NCBI GenBank assembly: GCA_035510735.1 | Contig: DATKGN010000002.1 | Span: 3,275 to 67,274, forward strand | From: Patescibacteria group bacterium | GTDB lineage: Bacteria; Patescibacteriota; Microgenomatia; UBA10105; UBA927 | DNA length: 64,000 nt | Direction: 5' to 3' | In this document: piece after piece, positions 13,917 through 30,257 of the stretch | How positions within the stretch are numbered: position 1 is the first letter of the stretch | Layout: each line of letters begins with the position of its first letter | Program-made: the position numbers and the translations under genes | The notes under the pieces: model-generated | Databases searched by the model: none | What the model saw: the letters and a program-made list of their open reading frames with translations, nothing else | Told to the model about the DNA's origin: nothing

Positions 13917-13961
13917 ATGGTAAAGAACGTTTTTTTCGGATTCACATTTACAACCTCCTAA
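13917..13961 (+). CDS. pheM: pheST leader peptide MVKNVFFGFTFTTS (14 aa, 4 Phe codons)
   Basis: ATG at 13917, 5 nt after the rplT stop. Codons are ATG GTA AAG AAC GTT TTT TTC GGA TTC ACA TTT ACA ACC TCC TAA. Immediately followed by antiterminator and terminator structures upstream of pheS. Too short for the ORF track. Confidence 0.6.
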   Translation: MVKNVFFGFTFTTS

Positions 13962-13996
13962 ACGGTGGGGTTTTGTGAGTCGGCAATAGAACAAAA

Positions 13997-14018
13997 CCCC
14001 GCTAGCCGGGGTTTTTTT
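13997..14018 (+). terminator. Intrinsic terminator of the pheST attenuator
   Basis: CCCCG-CTAGC-CGGGG followed by T7 (14012-14018). The upstream GGGGTTTTG (13967-75) can pair with CAAAACCCC (13992-14000), which overlaps the terminator 5' arm, to form an antiterminator. Confidence 0.7.
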
Positions 14019-14075
14019 GTACAATGAAGTCATCGCTTGCCCGTGAGTAGCTTAAAAACGTACAATAACTATATT

Positions 14076-18539: not shown

Positions 18540-21107
18540 CTATGTGGGAGTAGGGGTCGGGGTTGTATAGTCCTGGTTAATTGAAAAGTGTATATCATGA
18601 TCTGCGGATTGACCTTTGTCATCCGTCGCGTGAGCCCGTAATTCGTGGAGACCATTCCCCGGGATGTTTATGGTATCTGAGACGCTTTTATTCCCGTATT
18701 CCTTTACCTTATTTCCGTCGACATATAATTCTATTTTCGTAATATTTCCAAGGCTTGCAGAATCAATCTGAATCGGCACGTCATTGGTATTCACACGCGA
18801 TCCGTCCGACGGACTTTTAATCGATACGAAAATACTAGAGTCGCCGGTGTAGGTATCTTTCGGCGGATGAAACTTGGAGTCAGACTGACCATTCACCCAT
18901 GCATCAATGGCTTCCTGCCAGCGATTTTTACCATCACCCGATACCGGATCCTGTTCGGTAAATACAATATACTGTTTCGTATCATATTCCCCTTTGGTCA
19001 CTTCAACGGTATTTGCGAGTTTAGAGCTGTCCTTCCGGGAAATTTTCAGATTCTGATAGATGGGAGACGGACCGGTCGGTTCTGTGCCTTTAATGAACCG
19101 CTCTTTTCTCGTCGGCTGACCCGAAACTGGAAGTCCACCGCCATAGGCGTCTATATCCATTTCGACAATATCGCTCGGACGAACGAATGGCTCGTCTTTC
19201 CGTCCTTTGAGCGCCTCAACCATAATCCTGTTCCAGATGGGAGCAGCTCCTGTAATTCCTGAGGCAAGCGCCTGGTTCATTGGACTGTTATCGTTATTAC
19301 CGACCCATGTGCCCACAACGACGCTTGGCGTATAGCCCAACGTCCAATTGTCCCGTTTATCATCGGTCGTACCGGTTTTCGCGGCAACGGTATAGCCGGG
19401 AACATACAGTGATGAATGCGATCCGAATTCATCTTTCCGTGCGTCATTATCTGAGAGAACATCGGAAATCATATACGCAACGTCTGTCGGCAACACCTGT
19501 TGGGGCGGAATCGGATTATATTGGTAAAGCACATTCCCCTTGGCATCTTCAACTTTAAGAATCGAGACCGGCGGAACCCGCGCTCCGGCGTTAGCGAATA
19601 CCCCGTATGCGCTCGTGAGGTCAAGAAGAGTGACTTCACCGCCACCCAGGGTCATTGACAGGCCTAACCGGCTCAGGTTGTCCTGCGTCGGTTGGAGGGA
19701 ACTGATACCCATATCGTAAGCGGTCTGGAGCGCATCTTTAACGCCTACGAGCGCACTTACCTTAACCGCAATGGTATTAATGGAGTTACCCAGAGCATAT
19801 CGAAGCTGCATCGGACCCCGGAATTTACCGTCATAATTTTTCGGTTCATACTCAGGCTTCGTCGTATCACCGGAGGGATACTTTGTGTCAACATCCATAA
19901 GAAGAGTCGAAGCGGTATAGCCTTTTTTAAACGCCGTTGCGTACGTGAAGGGCTTTATGGAACTTCCGGGTTGCCGAAGTCCTTGTGTGGCCACATTAAA
20001 TTTATAGCCGCCGCTGTCGGTGGCCGAGTAATCCTTAGAGCCGATCATAGCCAAAATTTCACCTGTTTTTGGGTTTATGACGACAGCCGCGCCGTTACTG
20101 ACTTTTAATACTTTTGCTTTTGCCACTTCCTCCTTCACGATCTCTTGCGCTTTCTGCTGGAGCTGCCAGTCAAGGCTGGTCGTCACCTTAAGTCCACCGC
20201 CCTCAACCATCGTTGACCCGAATTTTTCAACCAGCTGATCTTTCACATATGCAACAAAGTGGGGAGCCCGCAGCCCGCCGGTGTCTTCTACAAACTGAAT
20301 CGTATTGAGTTGATTATTCGCCTGGGTTTCCTGACCCGATGTGATATATCCGTCCTCCGTCATCCTGCGCAATACCTGCTGCGTCCGCCAGACATATGCT
20401 TTCGGCTGGCCGGTGAACGGTGAATACACGGAGGGTGATTGGGGTAAACCCGCAAGTATTGCACATTCGATAAGGTTAAGACTTTTTACCGGTTTCCCGA
20501 AGTAATACTCCGCCGCCGACTCAACACCGACTGCCGTTCCACCATATGGTGCTTCATTGAGATACATCTGAAGAATCTCGTCTTTTGTATATTTCTTCTC
20601 AATTTGAATGGCAAGAATGGCTTCCTTAATTTTTCTCGGAAGCGTGCGCTCGTTCGTCAGTAACACGTTTTTCACAAGTTGTTGGGTAAGCGTCGAGCCG
20701 CCCTCAACACCACGGAAGGTGATAATATTGAGAATTGACCGTAAAATGCCTGTTGTCGATAAACCCTGATGCTGGTAAAAATTTTTATCCTCAATAGAGA
20801 TGGTTGCCTGTTTCAGATAATCTGGAATGTCGGCAAACGCAACCGGAAGCCTGTTTTGATTTTGATAGATGTCGTAGAGCGTCTCACCGTTTCGGTCTAA
20901 GATAACGGTCGATAATCCATTTGTGCGTTGCACCGTGTCAGGACGGGGCAAATCCCGTGCATACCATGCAAATAGAATGCCGGTTCCAAGAATCAAAACG
21001 ATAAGCCCGATGAACCCCGCCATGGCGATCGTCGCCCAGGTACTCGTCTTCAAACGCCGCGCACCGAATCTTCTTCTGAACTGCCGGTCATTGAAAATAT
21101 CGAGCAT
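18540..21107 (-). CDS. Class A penicillin-binding protein (PBP1A-type transglycosylase/transpeptidase) with C-terminal Ig-like extension
   Basis: N-terminal TM anchor, GT51 motifs (EDKNFYQHQG, RKIKEAILAIQIE), and transpeptidase motifs SxxK (SSIKP), SxN and KTGT (AAKTGTTDD). The C-terminal ~150 aa form an extra beta-rich domain ending in TPTPTPT. Start set at MLDIFNDRQF (21107); the ORF-track start 21185 is an unsupported extension. Confidence 0.9.
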   Translation of the reverse strand: MLDIFNDRQFRRRFGARRLKTSTWATIAMAGFIGLIVLILGTGILFAWYARDLPRPDTVQRTNGLSTVILDRNGETLYDIYQNQNRLPVAFADIPDYLKQATISIEDKNFYQHQGLSTTGILRSILNIITFRGVEGGSTLTQQLVKNVLLTNERTLPRKIKEAILAIQIEKKYTKDEILQMYLNEAPYGGTAVGVESAAEYYFGKPVKSLNLIECAILAGLPQSPSVYSPFTGQPKAYVWRTQQVLRRMTEDGYITSGQETQANNQLNTIQFVEDTGGLRAPHFVAYVKDQLVEKFGSTMVEGGGLKVTTSLDWQLQQKAQEIVKEEVAKAKVLKVSNGAAVVINPKTGEILAMIGSKDYSATDSGGYKFNVATQGLRQPGSSIKPFTYATAFKKGYTASTLLMDVDTKYPSGDTTKPEYEPKNYDGKFRGPMQLRYALGNSINTIAVKVSALVGVKDALQTAYDMGISSLQPTQDNLSRLGLSMTLGGGEVTLLDLTSAYGVFANAGARVPPVSILKVEDAKGNVLYQYNPIPPQQVLPTDVAYMISDVLSDNDARKDEFGSHSSLYVPGYTVAAKTGTTDDKRDNWTLGYTPSVVVGTWVGNNDNSPMNQALASGITGAAPIWNRIMVEALKGRKDEPFVRPSDIVEMDIDAYGGGLPVSGQPTRKERFIKGTEPTGPSPIYQNLKISRKDSSKLANTVEVTKGEYDTKQYIVFTEQDPVSGDGKNRWQEAIDAWVNGQSDSKFHPPKDTYTGDSSIFVSIKSPSDGSRVNTNDVPIQIDSASLGNITKIELYVDGNKVKEYGNKSVSDTINIPGNGLHELRAHATDDKGQSADHDIHFSINQDYTTPTPTPT

Positions 21108-21113
21108 AGAACT

Positions 21114-21142
21114 ATTGTACGTTGAATTGCACGAATTGACAA
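21114..21142 (-). promoter_or_regulatory. Candidate PBP1A promoter TTGTCA-17-TACAAT (minus strand), leaderless start
   Basis: On the minus strand TTGTCA (complement of 21137-21142), a 17-bp spacer, then TACAAT (complement of 21114-21119). The ATG follows 6 nt later. Interleaved with the divergent aro promoter. Confidence 0.4.
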
Positions 21143-21155
21143 CGAAGTGTATAAT
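21127..21155 (+). promoter_or_regulatory. Candidate aromatic-operon promoter TTGCAC-17-TATAAT
   Basis: TTGCAC 21127-32 and TATAAT 21150-55. The transcript would begin a few nt before the leader-peptide ATG at 21169. Confidence 0.5.
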
Positions 21156-21168
21156 ACGAATTCGTAGT

Positions 21169-21249
21169 ATGAAAACACAAAGCAACCAACAGTATTACTT
21201 TTATTTTACTCCATCCCTTGGAGGGGCTGCTCTTGTGGCACATACCTAA
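21169..21249 (+). CDS. Aromatic-pathway leader peptide MKTQSNQQYYFYFTPSLGGAALVAHT (26 aa; run of Tyr-Tyr-Phe-Tyr-Phe codons)
   Basis: ATG at 21169. Five consecutive aromatic codons TAT TAC TTT TAT TTT at 21193-21207. The peptide stops 24 nt before an intrinsic terminator that precedes the DAHP synthase gene. Confidence 0.6.
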   Translation: MKTQSNQQYYFYFTPSLGGAALVAHT

Positions 21250-21273
21250 ATAAAAGTATCGATCCACACTGAA

Positions 21274-21296
21274 CCCCGCCAAGGCGGGGTTTTTTT
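21274..21296 (+). terminator. Intrinsic terminator of the aromatic-operon attenuator
   Basis: CCCCGCC-aa-GGCGGGG then T7. No upstream co-directional gene, so it is not an operon-end terminator. The leader segment CCCTTGGAGGGG (21213-27) can pair with either terminator arm (antiterminator). Confidence 0.7.
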
Positions 21297-21381
21297 GTGG
21301 CTTAGTGGTTATTTAGCGAGTCGAGTCATCGAGACAAGCTTAATAACCACAATCCAGCAAAGCTGGATACATTAAAGATAT

Positions 21382-22146
21382 ATGAACATAAAAACAAAAT
21401 GCAAAAAACCAATAATTATCGCCGGTCCCTGTGCCGCCGAATCGAAAGCGCAAATCGCGTTGTCCCTGCGCGAGGCCAAAAAACGGGCTATCGACTTCGT
21501 GCGCATCAGCCTCTGGAAACCAAGGACCAAACCCGGATTTGAGGGCCTGGGATTTCGAGGAATTGACCTTCTCATTGAGGCCGCACGACTCGGCCTTTCC
21601 CCTGCCACTGAAGTCATTCTGCCTGAGCAGGCCCGCGCCGTCATGGATGCGGTATTAGGTGAAGTGCCGGAGACACGGCTCATGCTCTGGATTGGCGCGC
21701 GCAATCAAAATCACTACATCCAAAGGGAAATTGCGCGTGTTGCAGCGTCCGATAAGCGGGTCCTGCTGATGGTTAAAAACCAACCGTGGAGCAATGAGGA
21801 TCACTGGGAAGGCATTGTCGGACATGTATTAAGCGGTGGAATCGATAAGGCCCGCGTAATTCTCTGTCACCGTGGTTTTATACCCAACGGCGTTAATCCA
21901 TTCGGATACAAAAACGTGCCTGATTATGAGATGGCGATGAGAATAAAACATACATCAGGGTTACCAATGATATTTGACCCATCGCACACAGGCGGAACTG
22001 TTGATAAAGTTTTGCAAATTATGGACGAGGCCATGAAGCATGAGTTTGACGGGATTATCGTTGAGGTGCATCCCGATCCGACTCATGCGCTCACGGATGC
22101 GAAGCAACAATTGACATGGAAGGAATTTGATCAATTACGCGTATGA
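21382..22146 (+). CDS. aroG: 3-deoxy-7-phosphoheptulonate (DAHP) synthase, type I-beta (KDO8PS-like fold)
   Basis: IIAGPCAAES and the (beta/alpha)8 DAHPS/KDO8PS family signature, with no regulatory extension. First gene of the shikimate operon. Confidence 0.8.
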   Translation: MNIKTKCKKPIIIAGPCAAESKAQIALSLREAKKRAIDFVRISLWKPRTKPGFEGLGFRGIDLLIEAARLGLSPATEVILPEQARAVMDAVLGEVPETRLMLWIGARNQNHYIQREIARVAASDKRVLLMVKNQPWSNEDHWEGIVGHVLSGGIDKARVILCHRGFIPNGVNPFGYKNVPDYEMAMRIKHTSGLPMIFDPSHTGGTVDKVLQIMDEAMKHEFDGIIVEVHPDPTHALTDAKQQLTWKEFDQLRV

Positions 22147-23237
22147 ATACAATTATTTTGAACCAATCACAAAAAGAAAAAACTCAGGCGTGCCCGATTA
22201 TCATCGGGAATAATCTTGTGGGGAAAATTAATACGCTTTTTGACCTGTCCGTGTTTTCCCGGATAGTGGTTGTTACGGATACCAATACCGAGCGGCTCTT
22301 CCTTAAAACGCTTCTTTGTGCACTGCCAAAAAGTGCAGCGCGTGTCGTGTTACCCACGGGCGAGAAAGAAAAGAATTTCAAAAACGTTCAAAAAATATTG
22401 ATTGCGATGCACAAGGCATATTGTGATAGGGATACTCTCGTTATCAATCTTGGCGGCGGGGTCGTGAGCGATATCGGAGGATTTGCCGCAAGCATATTTA
22501 TGCGGGGCGTAAGTATACTCAACATTCCGACAACATTGCTTGCCCAGGCGGACGCAAGTATCGGAGGCAAAACCGGCATCAACTTTTTGGGAATTAAGAA
22601 TCTTGTTGGGACGTTTGCCCAACCGATAGGCGTCGTTATTGATGTGACAACGTTGCGGTCGCTTCCGGGGCGTGAATTGATCTCAGGGTTTGCCGAAATA
22701 ATTAAACACGGGCTCGTTGCTAATCGCACATTATTTCATTTAGCAACGTGCAAAACACCGCGGGATTTTACGAATAATAAACTCATCGCTATTATCACCA
22801 AATCATGCCGGGTAAAGGCCGACATCGTGAGTTGCGATCATACGGAACAACACGAGCGGAAACTCCTTAATTTCGGCCATACGATCGGACATGCCGTAGA
22901 AGCATTAAGCCAAACGTCCGTAAATCCCATTCTCCACGGAGAAGCGGTTGTCATCGGTATGATGGTCGAGGCAAAAATTTCAGAGCTCTCCGGTCTCCTG
23001 TCGCAAACCTCATGTTCTGTTATCGAAGAAGCTCTTACTTCACTTCCATTACCCAAATTACCGGAAGTAATACCGATTCAGAACATCATGGATGTGATCC
23101 GGTCGGATAAAAAAAGTAAAAACGGAATTATTCAGTGGACGCTCTTAACGGAAATCGGCAAAGGAATAATTAATCAGGTTGTCTGCGATAACACAGTTAT
23201 TGCAGCACTCAAACAAACGAAAGGAATAATCGTATGA
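22143..23237 (+). CDS. aroB: 3-dehydroquinate synthase
   Basis: NAD-binding GGGVVSDIGGFAAS motif and metal-binding NFGHTIGHAVE motif. Confidence 0.9.
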   Translation: MNTIILNQSQKEKTQACPIIIGNNLVGKINTLFDLSVFSRIVVVTDTNTERLFLKTLLCALPKSAARVVLPTGEKEKNFKNVQKILIAMHKAYCDRDTLVINLGGGVVSDIGGFAASIFMRGVSILNIPTTLLAQADASIGGKTGINFLGIKNLVGTFAQPIGVVIDVTTLRSLPGRELISGFAEIIKHGLVANRTLFHLATCKTPRDFTNNKLIAIITKSCRVKADIVSCDHTEQHERKLLNFGHTIGHAVEALSQTSVNPILHGEAVVIGMMVEAKISELSGLLSQTSCSVIEEALTSLPLPKLPEVIPIQNIMDVIRSDKKSKNGIIQWTLLTEIGKGIINQVVCDNTVIAALKQTKGIIV

Positions 23238-23668
23238 AAATATTAGTCGTCAATGGACCGAATTTGAATTTATTGGGTAAGCGCGATCACTCAAAGTACG
23301 GAACGATAACGCTTGGCCAACTCAATAACCAACTCAATCGTATAGCCAAAGAAACCGGCGTCAGTCTGACGTTTTTCCAATCGAATCACGAGGGAGCCAT
23401 TATTGATTTTCTCCAAAAAGATGCATCACGGGATGCGGACGGCGTCCTTATCAATCCGGGTGCTCTTGTGCGATACGGTTGGTCTTTGCGTCAAGCGCTC
23501 ATTGATCTTGGAAAACCGATTGTTGAAGTGCATATGTCTGACATTAATAGCACCGGCGTCAATAAAGCGGTTAACGTATTAGAAGGTATTCGCATAGATC
23601 AAATTGTCGGGTTAAAAGAGCAAAGTTACGAGTTGGGTCTTAAAAAATTATTACAAATAATTCTATGA
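23234..23668 (+). CDS. aroQ: 3-dehydroquinate dehydratase, type II
   Basis: MKILVVNGPNLNLLGKRD...INPGAL...HMSDI is the type II DHQase pattern. Confidence 0.9.
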   Translation: MKILVVNGPNLNLLGKRDHSKYGTITLGQLNNQLNRIAKETGVSLTFFQSNHEGAIIDFLQKDASRDADGVLINPGALVRYGWSLRQALIDLGKPIVEVHMSDINSTGVNKAVNVLEGIRIDQIVGLKEQSYELGLKKLLQIIL

Positions 23669-24972
23669 ACTTACACGTCCTACCGGCACAATCAATAAAA
23701 GGGGAAGTGGCAATGCCAAGAAGTAAAACCCACTCATTCAGGGCGCTCGTTCTTGCGGCCCTTGCAGATGGCACATCGACTATCCGAAAGCCCAAAATAA
23801 GTAATGATTGGAATATCGCAGTGGGTGGACTTCAACAGTTCGGCGCAACGATTAAAGAAACAGAGCCGAATGTCTTTCGTGTCACCGGCGTCGGGGGCAA
23901 TCTGCAAACCCCCAAGGAAGTTATTCATGTCGGAAACTCGGGGACGATGCTCTTCTTCCTCGCGGGTGTTGCAGCCGCTTGTCCGGGTATTTCTATCATC
24001 ACGGGGGATGAATCGATTAGATTACTGAGGATAATATCACGAAATCTATTTCAACCGTTTGAAGAACTCGGCGTGAGCATTACCTCGTCAAAGAATGACG
24101 GTATGGCCCCGCTCATCATCAAGGGGAACGTGAACGGTGGAGTCGCGCATATGGACGGCACCGGTTGCCAGCCCGTATTCAGCATTCTTATCGCGTCGGC
24201 CCTTTCATCAAAACCTGTTGAACTATTCGTTACAAGCCCGGGTGAAACGGCGTATATTGATTTACTTCTATTCTGGTTCAAAAAGGCAGGGATTGAGTGT
24301 CAAAACGTCGGGGGGACCCACTCGCATTATGTTTTTCCGGGAAACCAGCTGGCCAAAGCGTTCGATGAAACAATACCGCTCGAATGGTCAGCCTCCGCGT
24401 ATCCGCTTCTTGCGGCTCTTATTCTGCCGAATTCAAAAATGACGGTAAAGAATATGGACTTTGCCGATCCGTATGGAGATAAATTTGTTATCGATGTTCT
24501 GCGGCAAATGGGCGGAGACATTAGAGTGCATGATGGTAACCTGACTGCACAATCAAGCAGGCTTCATGGCATTGAAGTCGACATGAATCTGCTCCCTGAT
24601 CAAGTGCCCACGGTTGCGGTTGCCGCGTGTTTTGCGAAAGGAGCAACTGTTATCACAAATGCGCTAACAGCCCGATGGAAAGAGTGCGACCGTATTTCGG
24701 CTATTTGCAAGGAACTTAAAAAAATGGGAGCCGATATTCGCGAAAAGAGCGACGGACTCGTCATCCATGGCATCGAGGGAAAGAACATGCACGGCGCATC
24801 CATTGACGGTCATAAGGATCATCGTATGGTTTTGTCGTTAGCTGTCGCGGGAATGCAAGCCACTGGGGAAACAGTAATCACAGATGCCGAGATGGTCGAA
24901 AAATCATTTGAGACATTTATCCCGGACATGACACATGCAGGTGCTCTATTTGCACTGAAGGAGAGAACATGA
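23665..24972 (+). CDS. aroA: 3-phosphoshikimate 1-carboxyvinyltransferase (EPSP synthase)
   Basis: 435 aa with MPRSKTHSFRALVLAALADG...GNSGTMLFFLAG... and the EPSPS two-domain architecture. Confidence 0.9.
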   Translation: MNLHVLPAQSIKGEVAMPRSKTHSFRALVLAALADGTSTIRKPKISNDWNIAVGGLQQFGATIKETEPNVFRVTGVGGNLQTPKEVIHVGNSGTMLFFLAGVAAACPGISIITGDESIRLLRIISRNLFQPFEELGVSITSSKNDGMAPLIIKGNVNGGVAHMDGTGCQPVFSILIASALSSKPVELFVTSPGETAYIDLLLFWFKKAGIECQNVGGTHSHYVFPGNQLAKAFDETIPLEWSASAYPLLAALILPNSKMTVKNMDFADPYGDKFVIDVLRQMGGDIRVHDGNLTAQSSRLHGIEVDMNLLPDQVPTVAVAACFAKGATVITNALTARWKECDRISAICKELKKMGADIREKSDGLVIHGIEGKNMHGASIDGHKDHRMVLSLAVAGMQATGETVITDAEMVEKSFETFIPDMTHAGALFALKERT

Positions 24973-25496
24973 AAAATATAATTCTTATCGGCATGAAAGG
25001 ATGCGGCAAATCGACCGTAGGCCGAGTGTTATCAAAAAAACTCGGTATGCGTTTTGTGGAACTTGATGATGAAATATCAATGCTTTATGAAAAGAAAACG
25101 GGAAAACGACTGTCGTGCCGGAAAATATTTAGAAACATCGGCGAAGAAGACTTTCGTCAACTCGAAACGGACGCGCTAAATAATGTGAAACGTATACAAA
25201 ATATGGCTCTATCCTGCGGCGGCGGCACGCCGTTATCGGAAACAAATCAGGGAATGCTCCGATCTATGGGCACGGTCGTATTTCTTGATACCGACGAAGA
25301 CATTCTATTAAAACGAATAAAAACAGGCGGTATCCCTTCGTTTTTTAAAAAAAATGAAGACCATAAAACATCGCTCCATCAAGTGTTGGAAACGCGTTTT
25401 CCGGTGTACGAAAAAATTGCGGGCGTTCGTCTCGCACTTCGTGATGAATCACCCGAAGAAATAGCAACGCATATTTCTGAAAGGATTGGACTATGA
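24969..25496 (+). CDS. aroK: Shikimate kinase
   Basis: Walker A GMKGCGKSTVG, a small NMP-kinase fold and operon context. Confidence 0.85.
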   Translation: MKNIILIGMKGCGKSTVGRVLSKKLGMRFVELDDEISMLYEKKTGKRLSCRKIFRNIGEEDFRQLETDALNNVKRIQNMALSCGGGTPLSETNQGMLRSMGTVVFLDTDEDILLKRIKTGGIPSFFKKNEDHKTSLHQVLETRFPVYEKIAGVRLALRDESPEEIATHISERIGL

Positions 25497-26320
25497 ATAT
25501 AAACGGGGAAACAAAAATTATCGGTTTTTTGGGTGCAACGTTCAAAACAAGCAGAATATACGCGTTGTACAATGCCGCGTTTGCCGCATTACATCTCAAT
25601 TTTGTCTATATACCGCTTCCCTTTGGTGACGTTGAAAAGGCGGTAGAGGGAATACGAAACATGCGGATAGCTGCCGTAGGCGTAACCGTGCCGTTTAAAA
25701 TATCGATCCTGCCGTTTTTAGACGGTCTGGATAGACAAGCAAAACGAGTACGAGCCGTAAATGTCGTTATCAACGATAACGGAAAACTAATCGGCGGCAA
25801 CACCGACGGCGAAGGCGGCGTGCTTGCGCTCAAAGAAAAAACGGCTCTAGGTGGTAAAGGCGTTTTGTTGTTAGGTGCAGGCGGAGCAGCGCGGGCGATT
25901 GCTTTTTCGCTCATTGATAATGGCGCAGACGTGACGATTGTTAATAGAACAGTTGCTGCAGCCGGGGAGTTGGCCACCTCAGCAGGTTGCCGTTTCGATC
26001 AACTTACATCGTTATCAAGACATATAAAAAATGCAGACATTCTCATTAATGCAACAACTGTGGGTATGGGGCCGAATACGGATAAATCGTTAGTTCCTAA
26101 AGCATTACTCCGTCCTGATCTAACCGTATTGGATGTCGTAAGTAATCCCAAAGAAACACAGCTTGTTAGCGATGCACGAAGCGCGGGTTGCACGGTAGTC
26201 AGTGCCGACAGGATGCTTCTCTGGCAGGCGGCATTGAAGTTCAAACTATTTACAGGAGTTGAAGCGCCTATTTCTGTTATGGAAACGGCACTCAAGGAAA
26301 CGGAGGCTTATGGCAGGTAA
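25493..26320 (+). CDS. aroE: Shikimate 5-dehydrogenase
   Basis: NADP-binding LLLGAGGAARAIAF, N-terminal substrate domain and operon context. Confidence 0.85.
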   Translation: MNINGETKIIGFLGATFKTSRIYALYNAAFAALHLNFVYIPLPFGDVEKAVEGIRNMRIAAVGVTVPFKISILPFLDGLDRQAKRVRAVNVVINDNGKLIGGNTDGEGGVLALKEKTALGGKGVLLLGAGGAARAIAFSLIDNGADVTIVNRTVAAAGELATSAGCRFDQLTSLSRHIKNADILINATTVGMGPNTDKSLVPKALLRPDLTVLDVVSNPKETQLVSDARSAGCTVVSADRMLLWQAALKFKLFTGVEAPISVMETALKETEAYGR

Positions 26321-27395
26321 TACGTTTGGTCAATTATTTCGTATCACAACCTTCGGCGAATCCCATGGAGGGGCCGTCGGCGTGGTCGTTGACGGATGTC
26401 CGCCGGGTTTGGAGCTTTCAACCGAAGACGTACAAAAAGAACTGGACCGGAGAAAACCCGGACAAAGCGCCATTACATCACCACGAAAAGAACAGGACGA
26501 AATCCATATTATGTCGGGAGTTCACGACGGCAAAACAACGGGGACGCCGATTATGCTCATGGCATTGAATACCGATGCAAAACCCGAGGATTATCTCACA
26601 CTGAAAGATCTCTATCGGCCGGGTCACGCGGATTTTACATTTGAAAAAAAATTCGGTATCCGTGATTGGAGAGGTTCCGGCCGGGCATCAGCAAGAGAAA
26701 CGCTTGGAAGAGTAGCGGCAGGGGCCATAGCAAAGAAATTCCTTAAGGAAAAATTACATATCGAAATCTTCAGTTTCGTCGAACAGGTTGGTAATATAAA
26801 GACGGGCGTTGATTTTAACACTGTCAGTTTAGCCGAAATAGAATCGAACATCGTCCGTTGTCCAGACCCGAAAGTGGCCAAAAGGATGATTGCACTTATC
26901 GAAAAAGTTAGAGACGAGGGTGATTCCGTCGGTGGTGTTATCCGCGGCGTTATAAAGAACGTACCCGTGGGCTTAGGCGAACCGGTGTTTGATAAGTTAT
27001 CTGCCGATTTAGGAAAAGCAATGCTCTCAATTAACGCCGTCAAAGGTTTTGATATCGGATCGGGATTTGACGGAGTCACGATGCAGGGGAGCAGACATAA
27101 TGACGAATTCGTTACCAATAAGAACGGCACGATACGTACAAAAACAAACAATGCAGGCGGAACATTGGGCGGTATTTCCAACGGCGAGACAATCTATTTC
27201 CGTGTCGGGATGAAACCTGTCTCAACGATACGCAAAAAGCAACGAACGGTAAATGCCCAAGGCAAACCCGTTGACCTTGAGGCGACCGGTCGTCATGATC
27301 CGTGTGTGTTGCCGCGGGCGGTTCCGATCGTAGACGCGATGGCAGCGCTTGTCGTTATGGATCATTATTTACGGCACAAAGCGCAAAACGGATAA
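26310..27395 (+). CDS. aroC: Chorismate synthase
   Basis: Starts MAGNTFGQLFRITTFGESHG, the canonical AroC N-terminus, preceded by SD AAGGAAACGGAGG. The ORF-track start 26259 is an extension overlapping aroE. Confidence 0.9.
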   Translation: MAGNTFGQLFRITTFGESHGGAVGVVVDGCPPGLELSTEDVQKELDRRKPGQSAITSPRKEQDEIHIMSGVHDGKTTGTPIMLMALNTDAKPEDYLTLKDLYRPGHADFTFEKKFGIRDWRGSGRASARETLGRVAAGAIAKKFLKEKLHIEIFSFVEQVGNIKTGVDFNTVSLAEIESNIVRCPDPKVAKRMIALIEKVRDEGDSVGGVIRGVIKNVPVGLGEPVFDKLSADLGKAMLSINAVKGFDIGSGFDGVTMQGSRHNDEFVTNKNGTIRTKTNNAGGTLGGISNGETIYFRVGMKPVSTIRKKQRTVNAQGKPVDLEATGRHDPCVLPRAVPIVDAMAALVVMDHYLRHKAQNG

Positions 27396-27399
27396 TCAT

Positions 27400-27675
27400 A
27401 TGCAAAACGCATCCCTTAACCATTGGCGAGACCAAATCGATAAGCTTGATAATGAGCTTCTGTCTCTATTGGCAAAACGGATGGAGATCGTACAAAAAAT
27501 CGGAAGAATAAAACAATCATCGCATGCCTCCATCCTCGATAAAAAACGCTGGCAACAAGTACTTGAGGGAATCGACGCAAAAGCGAAAAAACTTAAACTT
27601 CCCAAAAAATTCGTTCATGAATTATTTACCCGTATTCACCAGCAAGCTTTGGAGACAGAAAGGAAAGACCTATGA
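27400..27675 (+). CDS. Chorismate mutase (AroQ class, monofunctional)
   Basis: ~91 aa helical protein (DKLDNELLSLLAKRMEIVQKIGRIK) in the aro operon. Start chosen at the ATG just after the aroC stop. Confidence 0.65.
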   Translation: MQNASLNHWRDQIDKLDNELLSLLAKRMEIVQKIGRIKQSSHASILDKKRWQQVLEGIDAKAKKLKLPKKFVHELFTRIHQQALETERKDL

Positions 27676-28823
27676 AAGCGTTTCAACTCTCCAATCGTCT
27701 TAACCAATTTCCGGAATATATTTTTTCTGCACTCAATAAACAAGTTGTTGAGGTAGAAAAAAAATCGGGCCGCAAGGTACTTAATTTAGGCATCGGGTCA
27801 CCCGATTTCCCCCCGAGCCGGATGTACCTCAATAAACTCAAAGAATATATTGATGAGAAGGGGAGTCATTTATATCCGGGCAATGGTGCAATCCCTGAGT
27901 TAGAAGAAGGACTGCAACATTGGTACAACTCGCGGTTTAACGTGACGCTCGCACAAAATGAGCTCTACCCATTATTGGGCAGCAGGGACGGCGTTGCCCA
28001 CTTACCACTGGCCCTCTGCAATAGGGGAGACGAGATAGTGGTTCCCGATCCTGGGTACCCTGCATTTACCGGTCCCGCTCTCATGATCGGCGTTAAACCA
28101 ATATATTACAATCTCGTGGCCGCAAACAATTTCAAAATTAACCTTAAGGAATTGGAAAGGAAAATCACACGAAAAACAAAATACATGTGGGTTAACTTTC
28201 CTTCAAACCCGACGGGGCAGGTTGCCACCATTGAAGAATTGCGAACTCTTGTCGCGTTCGCAAAAAATCACAATATCTGGCTTCTCTACGATAATGCGTA
28301 TGCAGAAATTACGTTTGACGGTTTTGTCGCACCGAGCATTCTTCAAATCGAGGGCGCGAAAGACATCGCGGTCGAAATCGGATCATTTTCCAAAACATTT
28401 TCATTTGCCGGTTTTCGCATGGGCTGGATTGTTGGAAATAGTGAGATTATTGCTGCCTTAGCAAAAATTAAATCTCAGATGGATTCAGGATTGTCTCTAC
28501 CGTTTCAAAAACTGGGCGGATTCGCGCTCACGCATCCGGATCGCGCTTGGCATGCTGAAATGATTGCAGCGTACCAACTCCGACGGGATATCATTATCAA
28601 GGCCCTGAAAACTATTGGTCTTGACGCCAATAAAACTAAGGGAAGCCTGTATCTTTGGGTTAACATACCGGATCGGTTTTCTGACTCGAAACACTACGCA
28701 CAAACGGTGTTGAGAGAAAAACAAATACTCCTGACTTCCGGAACGGCATTCGGAAAAAACGGAACAAGATATGTTCGTGTGAGTGTTTGCGCTAATATAG
28801 ATTCAATTGCCGAATATTTATAA
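27672..28823 (+). CDS. Class I PLP-dependent aminotransferase (probably aromatic/prephenate aminotransferase)
   Basis: NPTGQV motif, PLP-lysine region SFSKTFSFAGFRMGW and operon context. Confidence 0.8.
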   Translation: MKAFQLSNRLNQFPEYIFSALNKQVVEVEKKSGRKVLNLGIGSPDFPPSRMYLNKLKEYIDEKGSHLYPGNGAIPELEEGLQHWYNSRFNVTLAQNELYPLLGSRDGVAHLPLALCNRGDEIVVPDPGYPAFTGPALMIGVKPIYYNLVAANNFKINLKELERKITRKTKYMWVNFPSNPTGQVATIEELRTLVAFAKNHNIWLLYDNAYAEITFDGFVAPSILQIEGAKDIAVEIGSFSKTFSFAGFRMGWIVGNSEIIAALAKIKSQMDSGLSLPFQKLGGFALTHPDRAWHAEMIAAYQLRRDIIIKALKTIGLDANKTKGSLYLWVNIPDRFSDSKHYAQTVLREKQILLTSGTAFGKNGTRYVRVSVCANIDSIAEYL

Positions 28824-28841
28824 TACGATACACACCTTGTC

Positions 28842-28867
28842 ATCCTCGGGCCGAAGGACCCGAGGAT
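28842..28867 (+). other. Perfect hairpin ATCCTCGGG-ccgaagga-CCCGAGGAT, no U-tract
   Basis: 9-bp perfect stem located 19 nt after the aminotransferase stop. Confidence 0.45.
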
Positions 28868-28888
28868 CAAGGCTAAATGAAAAAATGG

Positions 28889-28908
28889 ATTCCCGCCTTC
28901 GCGGGAAT
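28889..28908 (+). other. Perfect hairpin ATTCCCGC-cttc-GCGGGAAT, no U-tract
   Basis: 8-bp perfect stem, 18 nt upstream of the tyrA-pheA fusion gene. Confidence 0.45.
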
Positions 28909-28925
28909 GACAAATACAAAATTAT

Positions 28926-30257
28926 ATGAAAAAAATAAGTATTGTCGGTTTCGGAAGATTCGGAAAAGTCTTATATCGTTTAGTAAAGGACGATTTCGTT
29001 GTCACGGTCTATACCAGAAAACCAATTAATTCAGGAACGGAAATATCACCTAATACAGTATTAACCAATTCCATACAAGATATTTACAAAAGCGATGTCA
29101 TATTTTTCGCTGTTCCGATTGATGCATTTGAAAGCGTCATAAAAGCGCATAAAAAATACTTTATACCGGGACACCTTCTTATTGATGTGTTGTCGGTAAA
29201 GCTGCATCCGCGAAGCGTATTTGAGAAACACCTCAAAGGCAGTAAAACACAGGTTCTGTTAACGCACCCTATGTTCGGGCCTGACAGCAGCCGTAATGGC
29301 TTTGATGGCTTACCCATTATCATGGACCGGTTCAAAGCGGATGAAACGAACTATGTTTTCTGGAAGAATTACTTCACCAATAAACATCTGCATGTTATTG
29401 AGATGTCAGCGCGGGATCATGACAGGCTTGCGGCAAATTCCCAGGGGTTGACGCATTTCGTCGGGCGCTTATTGGATTCCTATGGCCTACGACCGACTCA
29501 AATTGACTCATTAGGTACAAAAAAATTATTGGAAGTCATTGACCAAACGTGTAATGACTCGTGGCAGTTATTTACGAATTTGCAGCATTTTAATCCCTAC
29601 ACCAAACGGATGCGGATGGAACTTGGCGATACGTATGACCGGCTATACAATAAATTATTGCCGAAGCAGCATAATCCGCATTACATAACGTTCGGCATCC
29701 AGGGCGGAAAAGGAAGCTTTAATGAACAGGCGATACACGATTACGTAGAAAAAGAAGAGATTAAGCACTATAGAATCAAATATCTATACACGACAGCCGC
29801 GGTGATGCGTGCGCTCCACACTGGAGAAATCGATTTCGGACAATTCGCTATCCATAATTCGGTGGGTGGGATTGTGGGTGAATCGATTAACGCGATGGCG
29901 GACTACAGATTTACAATCGTAAAAGAGTTCGCTATCAAAATTTCGCATGCACTTATGATCCGGAAGGACGCCACATTAGAGGACGCGACGACAATTATGA
30001 CCCATCCGCAGGTTCTCGCGCAGTGCAAAGCAACGCTTGCCCGAAAGTATCCGCAATTGGCGCAAACGTCAGGGACGGGAATCCTATTGGATCATGCTGT
30101 GGTTGCAAGGCAATTGGGTTGCGGTAAACTACCGAAAGAAATTGCGACCATGGGGAGCAGAATCCTCGCTACGCTTTATGGTTTGAAAATTGTCGAGGTC
30201 AATCTGGAGGACGCCAAGGAAAACTTTACGATCTTTCTCATTGTCACACGCACATAA
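28926..30257 (+). CDS. Fusion protein: prephenate dehydrogenase (TyrA, N-terminal) - prephenate dehydratase (PheA, C-terminal)
   Basis: The N-terminus MKKISIVGFGRFGKV is a Rossmann NAD-binding fold typical of TyrA. From ~residue 255, ITFGIQGGKGSFNEQA...TRFLIV-like begins a PDT domain. Confidence 0.7.
   Translation: MKKISIVGFGRFGKVLYRLVKDDFVVTVYTRKPINSGTEISPNTVLTNSIQDIYKSDVIFFAVPIDAFESVIKAHKKYFIPGHLLIDVLSVKLHPRSVFEKHLKGSKTQVLLTHPMFGPDSSRNGFDGLPIIMDRFKADETNYVFWKNYFTNKHLHVIEMSARDHDRLAANSQGLTHFVGRLLDSYGLRPTQIDSLGTKKLLEVIDQTCNDSWQLFTNLQHFNPYTKRMRMELGDTYDRLYNKLLPKQHNPHYITFGIQGGKGSFNEQAIHDYVEKEEIKHYRIKYLYTTAAVMRALHTGEIDFGQFAIHNSVGGIVGESINAMADYRFTIVKEFAIKISHALMIRKDATLEDATTIMTHPQVLAQCKATLARKYPQLAQTSGTGILLDHAVVARQLGCGKLPKEIATMGSRILATLYGLKIVEVNLEDAKENFTIFLIVTRT

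What the first reader, a model, noticed from the sequence alone, without database searches (positions are those of the whole stretch)
21114..21296. Leader-peptide attenuator with five consecutive Tyr/Phe codons controlling the entire shikimate and aromatic amino acid operon
Between the divergent PBP1A gene and the DAHP synthase gene lies a promoter (TTGCAC-17-TATAAT). It is followed by a 26-codon ORF MKTQSNQQYYFYFTPSLGGAALVAHT whose codons 9-13 are TAT TAC TTT TAT TTT. An intrinsic terminator (CCCCGCC-aa-GGCGGGG-T7) sits 24 nt after its stop, about 85 nt before the first gene of a 10-gene aromatic biosynthesis operon. The leader segment CCCTTGGAGGGG is nearly identical to the reverse complement of the terminator sequence (revcomp CCCCGCCTTGGCGGGG), so it can pair with either terminator arm and gives the alternative antiterminator fold. 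This is the classic ribosome-stalling attenuation architecture known from pheA and trp, but applied to the common pathway with mixed Tyr/Phe control codons. No co-directional gene lies upstream, so the terminator is not an operon-end terminator.
Basis: seen in the sequence. Interest (0 to 1): 0.72.

Follow-up and report, generated by a model that had tools for sequence, protein, structure and literature searches.

The report
Aromatic leader-peptide attenuator in a CPR bacterium
A short upstream reading frame rich in tyrosine and phenylalanine codons, followed by a switchable terminator, very probably lets this tiny uncultured bacterium turn on its aromatic amino-acid pathway only when those amino acids run short; the mechanism is textbook, but this conserved RNA family in the Patescibacteria matches no Rfam family and no paper I could find.

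Summary
Window 21169-21249 encodes MKTQSNQQYYFYFTPSLGGAALVAHT. A strong intrinsic terminator follows at 21271-21296, 84 nt before a tightly packed shikimate/Phe/Tyr operon. The upstream gene (PBP1A) is divergent.

The interpretation as a ribosome-mediated attenuator is strongly supported by comparison:
- The window is from a Patescibacteria (CPR) MAG.
- 70 of 82 related loci (DAHP synthase 51-83% identical) carry a match to a model of this leader and terminator, upstream of the gene or of its operon. Each of the 54 distinct leaders studied in detail has a short ORF with 4-6 (all but two 5-6) aromatic residues in six, consensus YFWFYF.
- A hairpin starts right after the aromatic codons. Its GGGAGG-type strand (region 2) also pairs with the terminator 5' arm and flank.
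- This antiterminator pairing covaries between loci (0/5000 permutations).
- In at least 31 of 54 leaders the first gene starts within 25 nt of the U-tract, so it can only be expressed by read-through.

The novelty claim is overstated. Corynebacterium glutamicum aroR (Phe-Tyr-Phe) already controls a DAHP synthase by attenuation, and Bacteroidota and Planctomycetota loci have their own Phe/Tyr leaders. This is a new, uncurated member of a known kind. No experiment exists, and the switch must be kinetic.

The parts
21127..21155 (+). Probable sigma-70-type promoter, TTGCAC-17-TATAAT. The -10 ends 13 nt before the leader ATG, so the 5' UTR is only about 6-7 nt and has no Shine-Dalgarno sequence.
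   Evidence: Sequence read. It is identical in L001. 77% of homologous leaders have a >=10/12 promoter match within 75 nt upstream, against 2% of control windows, and the -10 mostly ends 7-13 nt before the ATG.
21169..21249 (+). Leader peptide ORF, 26 codons plus stop: MKTQSNQQYYFYFTPSLGGAALVAHT.
   Evidence: Short ORFs with 4-6 (all but two 5-6) aromatic residues in a 6-residue window lie upstream of DAHP synthase in 54 distinct related leaders. Ten further hits found only by the covariance model, not by the ORF criterion, were examined: nine carry such an ORF, though one (L137, minus strand) has only 3 aromatic residues, and L147 is cut by the contig end.
21193..21207 (+). Control codons 9-13, TAT TAC TTT TAT TTT (Tyr Tyr Phe Tyr Phe). 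This is the proposed ribosome stall site.
   Evidence: The family consensus is Y-F-W-F-Y-F. Codons in the runs are TTT 147, TAT 76, TAC 39, TGG 38, TTC 15, and only 16 non-aromatic.
21196..21206 (+). 5' strand of helix P1 (UACUUUUAUUU, inside the control codons). It pairs with 21248-21258.
   Evidence: Perfect 11-bp complement (-8.7 kcal/mol). Relatives have UGGUUUUAUUU paired with AAAUAAAACCA, so UAC/GUA in place of UGG/CCA is compensatory. Own versus cross-locus energy is -8.35 versus -6.68, with 0/5000 permutations reaching the own value. On A4, 7 of the 9 P1 pairs show a change on both sides in some sequence.
21209..21217 (+). Region 1 (CUCCAUCCC), directly after the control codons. CUCCA pairs with UGGAG of region 2 and acts as the anti-antiterminator.
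   Evidence: A local hairpin of -7.0 kcal/mol that is part of the MFE fold. An equivalent hairpin is present in all 54 leaders. Lineage-specific covariation was not significant (1211/5000).
21218..21238 (+). Region 2: core UUGGAGGGG (21218-21226) plus extension UC.UUGUGG (21231-21238). It is the 5' strand of the antiterminator.
   Evidence: It pairs with 21264-21283 in the co-transcriptional fold (-18 to -20 kcal/mol with a ribosome on codons 9-13). RNAduplex gives -13.1. In the family, region 2 starts 6-14 nt (mostly 9-11) after the last aromatic codon.
21248..21258 (+). 3' strand of helix P1 (AAAUAAAAGUA). It overlaps the last two bases of the stop codon.
21264..21283 (+). Region 3: CCACA (21264-21268) plus the terminator 5' arm and loop, GAACCCCGCCAAG (21271-21283). 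It is the 3' strand of the antiterminator.
   Evidence: One search gives the partners (21271 with 21232, through 21283 with 21217). Own versus cross-locus tests: core 0/5000, extension 0/5000. On alignment A4, 81.9% of cells are paired against 46-65% for slid controls, and the covariation score is 0.221 against 0.136, 0/500.
21271..21296 (+). Intrinsic terminator: GAACCCCGC / CAAG / GCGGGGUUU, with a U7 tract at 21290-21296.
   Evidence: -16.5 kcal/mol. All 54 homologous leaders have a canonical hairpin plus U-run. In A4 the terminator helix is 86.5% paired and all 7 pairs show changes on both sides.
21382..28823 (+). Regulated operon core of nine overlapping or abutting genes: DAHP synthase, aroB, aroQ, aroA, aroK, aroE, aroC, chorismate mutase and an aminotransferase.
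   Evidence: Pfam assignments; coordinates.
28926..30257 (+). Probable tenth gene, a prephenate dehydrogenase / prephenate dehydratase fusion. It follows a 102-nt gap with no plus-strand terminator.
   Evidence: Co-transcription is inferred, not shown.

Best explanation
This is a classical ribosome-mediated transcription attenuator for the aromatic amino-acid operon of a Patescibacteria (CPR) bacterium.

Proposed mechanism:
1. Transcription starts about 6-7 nt before the leader AUG, and a ribosome begins translating the 26-codon leader.
2. If charged tRNA-Tyr or tRNA-Phe is scarce, the ribosome stalls on codons 9-13 (YYFYF). Its footprint melts helix P1 (control codons with the segment at the stop codon) and covers region 1.
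3. Region 2 (UUGGAGGGG..UGUGG) is then free to pair with region 3 (CCACA..CCCCGCCAA) as region 3 emerges.
4. This antiterminator occupies the 5' arm of the terminator, so RNA polymerase reads through into DAHP synthase and the rest of the pathway.
5. If the aromatic tRNAs are charged, the ribosome runs through region 2 to the stop codon. Region 2 is covered, or is recaptured by region 1 and P1 behind the ribosome. The terminator hairpin then forms and transcription stops at the U7 tract.

Shown here: all sequence elements, their conservation, covariation of P1, the antiterminator and the terminator, and the dependence of the downstream gene on read-through in relatives.

Inferred: translation of the ORF, stalling, the kinetic order of folding, and the response to Tyr/Phe supply.
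For: Anatomy of the window.

Operon content (DAHP synthase through aminotransferase, then the PDH/PDT fusion). Divergent upstream gene. Organism is a Patescibacteria MAG. The DAHP synthase relatives named by their sources are Roizman-, Levy- and Daviesbacteria.

Conservation:
- 54 distinct leaders carry aromatic-run ORFs upstream of DAHP synthases of 51-83% identity.
- Covariance model R1 finds the element in 70 of 82 related loci that have upstream sequence. The 76 Bacteroidota/other outgroup loci give only weak hits of <=35 bits.
- Ten further hits found by the model alone were examined. Nine have an in-frame ORF over the motif; one of these (L137, minus strand) has only 3 aromatic residues, and L147 is cut by the contig end.
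- Background: 2 of 1180 small ORFs in the window reach 5/6 aromatic.

Structure:
- Every leader has a terminator.
- Region 2 starts 6-14 nt after the last aromatic codon and pairs with the terminator 5' arm plus flank at -12 to -22 kcal/mol (one leader, L114, only -8.0).
- Own versus cross-locus antiterminator energy is -17.0 versus -12.8, 0/5000 permutations; shuffled sequence gives -6.9.
- The core alone, the extension alone and P1 each give 0/5000.
- Termination-state structure on A4: 81% paired against 54-64% for slid controls, and 20 of 23 pairs change on both sides.
- Antiterminator core on the same alignment: 81.9% against 46-65%, covariation 0/500.

Geometry in the window: with a ribosome mask on codons 9-13, the transcript ending at 21283 folds into the antiterminator. 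With the mask on codons 14-20 it cannot.

Dependence on read-through: in at least 31 of 54 leaders the next gene starts <=25 nt after the U-run.

A sub-threshold match to Rfam Phe_leader with the same overall layout (31.1 bits, E = 0.004) and a second, pheM-like attenuator in the same window show that the organism uses this mode of control.
Against: - There is no experimental or transcriptomic evidence. Translation, stalling and regulated termination are all inferred.
- Equilibrium folding does not discriminate the two states. The full-length leader folds into the terminator whatever the ribosome position. The transcript truncated before region 4 prefers the antiterminator even with no ribosome. 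The switch therefore has to be kinetic, as in trp.
- In this window the stop codon lies 20 nt beyond the region 2 core. A terminating ribosome would cover only the extension, and a shortened antiterminator is still the computed optimum (-14.8 kcal/mol).
- The region 1:region 2 hairpin is conserved but shows no lineage-specific covariation (1211/5000).
- The leader has no Shine-Dalgarno sequence.
- The permutation tests do not correct for relatedness among loci.
- The window, unlike 38 of 54 relatives, has no Trp codon in its leader.
- 84 nt with two further hairpins separate the terminator from the first gene, and their role is unexplained.
Confidence: 0.85

Rival explanations
1. The small ORF and its terminator form an independent unit, either a small-protein gene or a constitutive terminator insulating the divergent promoters. 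The aro operon would then be transcribed from its own promoter in the 84 nt downstream of the terminator.
For: In this window there are 84 nt between the U-tract and the DAHP synthase ATG, enough room for a promoter. The segment is an insertion relative to the closest relative, L001.
Against: The scan lists no plus-strand promoter-like site between 21297 and 21381. That segment folds into two stable hairpins (-29.9 kcal/mol). In L001 and in at least 31 of 54 relatives the first gene starts <=25 nt after the U-run, leaving no room for a promoter. The peptide is conserved only in its aromatic run and in residues that encode the RNA helices. The antiterminator covaries, which a simple terminator would not need.
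Confidence: 0.05
2. The switch acts mainly on translation. The G-rich 3' arm of the terminator is the ribosome-binding site of the first gene, and the alternative folds expose or hide it. Termination would be secondary.
For: In many relatives GGGAGGUUUUUUUAUG places the 3' arm (GGGAGG) 7-8 nt before the start codon of the first gene. There the hairpin would sequester a Shine-Dalgarno-like sequence.
Against: In the window the arm lies about 90 nt from the DAHP synthase ATG, so it cannot be the gene's ribosome-binding site. Every member has a full U5-U9 tract after a G+C-rich stem, the signature of an intrinsic terminator. In relatives the two effects could be additive rather than alternative.
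Confidence: 0.05
3. Read-through is controlled by a trans-acting factor (an RNA-binding protein of the TRAP or PyrR type, a tRNA as in T-boxes, or a small ligand) that binds the leader. The ORF would be incidental.
For: Aromatic pathways are controlled this way in Firmicutes (TRAP, T-box; established knowledge). Equilibrium folding alone does not show a ribosome-dependent switch.
Against: No riboswitch, T-box or other Rfam family reaches its gathering score in the window or in 20 homologous loci. In 53 of the 54 distinct leaders, and in nine of the ten further model-only hits examined, the conserved U-rich motif is in frame with an upstream ATG (a GTG in L120) and reads as Phe/Tyr/Trp; the exceptions are cut by contig ends or reach only 3-4 aromatic residues. 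Substitutions within the run stay within TTT/TTC/TAT/TAC/TGG. The N-terminal part varies freely in length and sequence, as expected for a leader peptide and not for a binding site.
Confidence: 0.04

Closest known systems
Escherichia coli pheL-pheA attenuator (Rfam RF01859, Phe_leader)
   Same: Both have a short leader ORF with a run of aromatic codons. In both, the control codons pair with a downstream A-rich segment, a small internal hairpin is present, and a G+C-rich terminator with a U-tract follows. The Rfam model aligns end to end with that layout.
   Different: The score is 31.1 bits against a gathering score of 55, and no homolog reaches it. The codons are mixed Tyr/Phe (plus Trp in most relatives) instead of Phe only. 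The element controls the whole common pathway plus the Phe/Tyr branch, not pheA alone. The host is a Patescibacterium, not a gammaproteobacterium. The 5' UTR is very short and has no Shine-Dalgarno sequence.
Corynebacterium glutamicum aroR leader upstream of aroF (DAHP synthase)
   Same: A leader-peptide attenuator in front of a DAHP synthase operon with mixed Phe and Tyr control codons (Phe-Tyr-Phe). Read-through is reported to rise under Phe limitation (PMC11802643, citing Neshat et al. 2014; PMC4046766).
   Different: It is in a different phylum. It has three control codons rather than 5-6. It sits in front of an operon containing aroF, not the nine-to-ten-gene pathway operon seen here.
Escherichia coli pheM leader of pheST
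   Same: A 14-residue Phe-rich leader between rplT and pheS (established knowledge; PMC11802643 cites Springer 1985). The window has exactly this at 13917-14020, with MVKNVFFGFTFTTS, in the same thrS-infC-rpmI-rplT-leader-pheS-pheT order. In 12 related loci (two of them near-duplicates, so 11 distinct) the aro leader itself sits directly after rplT. The short aro leaders end in ...FYFTS*, like the window's pheS leader.
   Different: The aro leader of the window is not next to rplT; it lies beside a divergent PBP1A. It controls biosynthesis, not the tRNA synthetase. Common descent of the two leaders is only suggested: model R1 scores the pheS leader at 32 bits, E = 0.03.
Escherichia coli trpL attenuator
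   Same: The same four-segment logic (1:2, 2:3, 3:4). The terminator is more stable than the antiterminator, and control is kinetic and depends on coupling of the ribosome to RNA polymerase (established knowledge).
   Different: The control codons here are Tyr/Phe, not Trp Trp. Across the family the stop codon position relative to region 2 varies by about 40 nt, so masking of region 2 by the terminating ribosome cannot be the universal off-switch.

Membership tests
Classical ribosome-mediated (leader-peptide) transcription attenuator | A short ORF upstream of a biosynthetic operon, with a cluster of codons for the amino acid(s) the operon makes. | tested here: met
   The ORF has YYFYF at codons 9-13 and the operon makes chorismate, Phe and Tyr. 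The feature is conserved in 54 distinct leaders, against 2 of 1180 background ORFs.
Classical ribosome-mediated (leader-peptide) transcription attenuator | An intrinsic terminator between the leader ORF and the first structural gene. | tested here: met
   The terminator helix covaries.
Classical ribosome-mediated (leader-peptide) transcription attenuator | An antiterminator helix that shares a strand with the terminator, making the two mutually exclusive. | tested here: met
   21217-21238 pairs with 21264-21283, which overlaps the terminator 5' arm. Covariation of core and extension is 0/5000 each, and 0/500 on A4.
Classical ribosome-mediated (leader-peptide) transcription attenuator | An anti-antiterminator pairing that a ribosome stalled on the control codons would disrupt. 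| tested here: met
   Region 1 lies 1-10 nt after the last control codon, inside a stalled ribosome's footprint, and P1 uses the control codons themselves. P1 covaries. Covariation of the 1:2 hairpin is not significant.
Classical ribosome-mediated (leader-peptide) transcription attenuator | The leader ORF is translated, and read-through responds to the supply of the cognate charged tRNAs. | not testable with these tools
   Only indirect support: the reading frame, the start codon and the aromatic codon identity are conserved.
Rfam RF01859 Phe_leader | A covariance-model score at or above the curated gathering score of 55 bits. | tested here: not met
   31.1 bits, E = 0.0042. There is no gathering-level hit in the window or in 20 homologous loci.
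T-box or metabolite riboswitch | A match to a curated Rfam model for such an element upstream of the operon. | tested here: not met
   none.
pheM-type leader of pheST | Located between rplT and pheS, with a Phe-rich leader of about 14 codons. | tested here: not met
   The aro leader of the window lies between PBP1A and DAHP synthase. A separate element at 13917-14020 does meet this definition.

The most novel reading that the evidence does not exclude
The element represents a previously uncurated attenuator RNA family that is widespread in Microgenomates-type Patescibacteria. In this reading:
- It reads the supply of all three aromatic aminoacyl-tRNAs through one leader peptide (consensus YFWFYF).
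- It is translated from a nearly leaderless mRNA.
- In many members it combines termination with sequestration of the first gene's ribosome-binding site.
- It arose from the pheM-type leader that follows rplT.

It would be the first evidence that transcription-translation coupling is used for regulation in the CPR, and it shows that these reduced genomes keep a regulated, complete aromatic pathway.
Probability: 0.5. Interest if true: 0.55.

Novelty: new member of a known kind. Interest (0 to 1): 0.42.

Why it matters
Patescibacteria (CPR) are usually described as ultra-small, host-dependent cells with little biosynthetic or regulatory capacity. Here one of them carries a complete, single-operon shikimate/Phe/Tyr pathway under a conserved leader-peptide attenuator, plus a second pheM-like attenuator before pheST.

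This implies that ribosomes follow RNA polymerase closely enough in these organisms for attenuation to work. It also gives annotators a recognisable RNA element: a covariance model was built here and detects it in 70 of 82 related loci. In addition, it offers a simple heterologous test system for CPR gene regulation. The mechanism itself is textbook, so the gain is in distribution and evolution, not in principle.

Tried and rejected
1. MAFFT alignment plus RNAalifold of the 54 leaders gave no consensus structure at all, because the helices were out of register. I replaced it with a covariance-model alignment and alignment-free duplex permutation tests.
2. Equilibrium folding of the full leader with ribosome masks always returned the terminator, so it cannot show the switch. 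Only truncated, co-transcriptional folds are informative.
3. The covariation test for the region 1:region 2 hairpin was not significant (1211/5000). Both strands are too conserved to tell.
4. Rfam at permissive thresholds gave only sub-threshold leader matches (Phe, Leu, Trp leaders) and terminator-driven noise.
5. Literature searches for attenuators or leader peptides in CPR/Patescibacteria, for the shikimate pathway in Microgenomates, and for Bacteroides Phe/Tyr leaders found nothing relevant. The comparative-genomics paper most likely to cover other phyla (Lopatovskaya et al. 2010) is cited in PMC4833913 but is not held in the library.
6. I considered that TAGT just before the ATG might be a -10 box. 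I rejected this because a stronger TTGACA-17-TATAAT-type promoter lies 7-13 nt upstream in most loci.
7. I considered that the leader overlaps the PBP1A gene, since the mechanical ORF runs to 21185. I rejected this because the called gene in identical contigs is 855 aa, which puts its start at 21107.

Full report
**Observation.** The sequence is as described.
- A 26-codon ORF at 21169-21249 reads MKTQSNQQYYFYFTPSLGGAALVAHT, with TAT TAC TTT TAT TTT at codons 9-13 (21193-21207).
- TTGCAC-17-TATAAT lies at 21127-21155.
- A canonical intrinsic terminator, GAACCCCGC/CAAG/GCGGGGUUU with a U7 tract, lies at 21271-21296. It is 84 nt before the DAHP synthase ATG at 21382.
- The only upstream gene is a divergent class A penicillin-binding protein. 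Judging by the gene called on identical contigs, its real start is 21107, so nothing co-directional ends here.
- The leader folds better than shuffled versions (z = -3.55).
- Only 2 of 1180 small ATG ORFs in the whole window have 5 aromatic residues in any window of 6.

**Context.** Nine genes from 21382 to 28823 overlap or abut: DAHP synthase, aroB, aroQ, aroA, aroK, aroE, aroC, chorismate mutase and an aminotransferase. After a 102-nt gap comes a prephenate dehydrogenase/dehydratase fusion gene, and then tyrS. The gaps hold hairpins but no plus-strand terminator. 'Ten genes' is therefore plausible but only nine are tightly coupled.

Exact protein look-ups place the window in a 225-kb contig of a 'Patescibacteria group bacterium' MAG. 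The DAHP synthase relatives that their sources name are from Roizman-, Levy- and Daviesbacteria.

**Comparison.**
- One genome scan and one metagenome scan with the DAHP synthase gave 84 related loci at 51-83% identity.
- A mechanical search of the 400 nt upstream found a short ATG ORF with 4-6 (all but two 5-6) aromatic residues in six, followed by a T-run, in 54 distinct leaders. The consensus is ..N-Y-F-W-F-Y-F-T-[SP]...
- All runs mix Phe and Tyr, and 38 of 54 also hold one Trp codon. The window has none.
- A covariance model built from these leaders detects the element in 70 of 82 loci that have upstream sequence.
- Some of these are loci where another gene, a pfkB-like kinase, precedes DAHP synthase. 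Ten further hits found by the model alone were examined: nine carry an in-frame ORF over the motif, one of them (L137, minus strand) with only 3 aromatic residues, and L147 is cut by the contig end.
- Seventy-six more distant loci, mostly Bacteroidota, give only weak hits.
- Upstream neighbours differ between loci: divergent PBP1A in 9 loci, rplT in 12 loci (two near-duplicates, so 11 distinct), and tRNAs in one. The element therefore travels with the aro operon, not with its neighbour.

**Structure.**
- Every leader ends in a G+C-rich hairpin plus U-run.
- Directly after the aromatic codons comes a small hairpin, region 1 (ACYUCCCC) with region 2 (GGGAGGU).
- Region 2 begins 6-14 nt, mostly 9-11, after the last aromatic codon. 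Together with the bases that follow it, it is complementary to the terminator 5' arm and the bases preceding that arm, at -12 to -22 kcal/mol in all but one leader (L114, -8.0).
- This antiterminator follows the terminator sequence from lineage to lineage. GGGG or GCGGGG goes with CCCCGC, GGAAGG with CCUUCC, and GGGAGU with ACUCCC.
- Own-locus energy is -17.0 against -12.8 for cross-locus partners and -6.9 for shuffles, with 0 of 5000 permutations reaching the own value.
- The core alone and, more tellingly, the extension outside the terminator each give 0/5000.
- On the model-based alignment the antiterminator core is 81.9% paired against 46-65% for slid controls, and the covariation score exceeds all 500 shuffles.
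- The termination-state structure is 81% paired against 54-64%, and 20 of 23 pairs change on both sides.
- A further helix, P1, pairs the control codons with an A-rich segment at the stop codon. In the window this is UACUUUUAUUU with AAAUAAAAGUA, and in most relatives UGGUUUUAUUU with AAAUAAAACCA, which is a compensatory change. The own versus cross test gives 0/5000.
- The 1:2 hairpin is always possible but is too conserved to show covariation (1211/5000).

**Mechanism.** The layout is that of a classical attenuator.
- With a 28-nt ribosome mask on codons 9-13, the transcript ending just before region 4 folds into the antiterminator 21217-21238:21264-21283 (-18 to -20 kcal/mol).
- With the mask on codons 14-20, region 2 is covered and no antiterminator forms.
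- In at least 31 of 54 leaders the first structural gene starts within 25 nt of the U-run, often as GGGAGGUUUUUUUAUG. That gene can then be transcribed only by read-through, and the terminator 3' arm doubles as its ribosome-binding site.
- Promoters of the TTGACA-17-TATAAT type precede 77% of leaders, against 2% of control windows. The -10 ends 7-13 nt before the AUG, so the leader mRNA has almost no 5' UTR and no Shine-Dalgarno sequence.

**Caveats.**
- The full-length leader always prefers the terminator at equilibrium.
- The truncated transcript prefers the antiterminator even without a ribosome. The decision must therefore be kinetic.
- In this window a ribosome at the stop codon covers only the extension of region 2.
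- Nothing has been tested experimentally.

**Known relatives.**
- The best Rfam match is Phe_leader, which aligns end to end with the same layout but scores only 31.1 bits against a gathering score of 55.
- No Rfam family reaches its threshold in the window or in 20 homologous loci.
- The claim that attenuation of the common pathway with mixed Phe/Tyr codons is new does not hold. The C. glutamicum aroR leader (Phe-Tyr-Phe) upstream of aroF is an established case (PMC11802643, PMC4046766).
- Among the outgroup loci, Paludibacter, Dysgonamonadaceae, Phocaeicola, a Flavobacteriales MAG and a Thermoguttaceae MAG have their own Phe/Tyr-rich leaders with terminators.
- I found no paper on attenuators in the CPR.

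**Verdict.** It is a new, uncurated member of a well-known kind of regulator. It is notable mainly for its host group and wide conservation there, for the three-amino-acid consensus of the family, and for the likely link to the pheM-type leader found 7 kb upstream in the same window.

Noticed in passing
window 13917-14020 (+): A second attenuator. The ORF MVKNVFFGFTFTTS* (13917-13961) is followed by GGUGGGGUUUUGUG and the terminator AAAACCCCG-cuag-CCGGGGUUUUUUU. It lies between rplT (13562-12 to 13912) and pheS (start 14079), in the order thrS-infC-rpmI-rplT-leader-pheS-pheT as in E. coli pheM-pheST. The aro-leader model scores it at 32 bits (E = 0.03) and Rfam Phe_leader at 24 bits.
   Followed up: partly
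L002, L101, L104, L105, L106, L108, L118, L119, L126/L127, L135, L149: In these relatives the aromatic leader and DAHP synthase lie directly downstream of rplT, the position pheM occupies in the window and in E. coli. The short leaders end in ...FYFTS*. This suggests that the aro leader and the pheST leader share an origin.
   Followed up: partly
window 21299-21381 (+): The 84 nt between the terminator and DAHP synthase hold two stable hairpins: GUGGUUAUU...AAUAACCAC at 21305-21350 and AUCCAGC-aaa-GCUGGAU at 21352-21368 (-29.9 kcal/mol together). The segment is absent from the closest relative, L001, where the gene starts 16 nt after the U-run, and it is not repeated elsewhere in the window. 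L085 has a different insertion at the same place. The function is unknown.
   Followed up: partly
window 28926-30257 (+): A single 443-aa protein combines a prephenate dehydrogenase N-domain (PF02153) with a prephenate dehydratase domain (PF00800). This joins the Tyr and Phe branch enzymes in one polypeptide.
   Followed up: no
window 28836-28908: Two G+C-rich hairpins lie in the gap before the PDH/PDT gene: CAUCCUCGGG..CCCGAGGAUC and AUUCCCGC-cuuc-GCGGGAAU. The second reads as a terminator only on the minus strand, where no gene ends.
   Followed up: no
L163 400-514 and 539-629: Two aromatic attenuators in tandem, each with its own terminator, precede one DAHP synthase gene: MQTTQKAYFAFYFTS, then MELKQIFSLFYFFYPN.
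   Followed up: no
L003 1922-2035, L004 1856-1980, L100 569-677, L154 91-209, L137 100-218 (-): In these loci the leader is followed first by a gene that begins like a pfkB-family sugar kinase (M[KR]ILG[IV]GE[SA]V[IV]D); in L003, L004, L100 and L154 DAHP synthase comes only after it. The L137 copy, on the minus strand, has a degenerate leader with only three aromatic residues.
   Followed up: no
L045 520-638, L068, L065, L056, L060, L062, L027; L030 2728-2851: Bacteroidota loci carry their own Phe/Tyr-rich leader ORFs (for example MTRFFTYFYFYFYFKR), with Bacteroidetes-type promoters and terminators, about 2.4 kb upstream of DAHP synthase. A Thermoguttaceae MAG has MNHNSVNFYFSYYQFYWFYTNNAPVKLC. 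Aromatic leaders in front of operons that contain DAHP synthase therefore occur in several phyla.
   Followed up: partly
window 21114-21142 (-): A minus-strand promoter-like site, TTGTCA-17-TACAAT (10/12), for the divergent PBP1A gene overlaps the leader promoter back to back.
   Followed up: no
L001, L003 (record titles): The public records of the two relatives L001 and L003 are labelled 'uncultured Gammaproteobacteria'. Their DAHP synthase, PBP1A and leader match Patescibacteria sequences, so the labels look like binning or classification errors.
   Followed up: no
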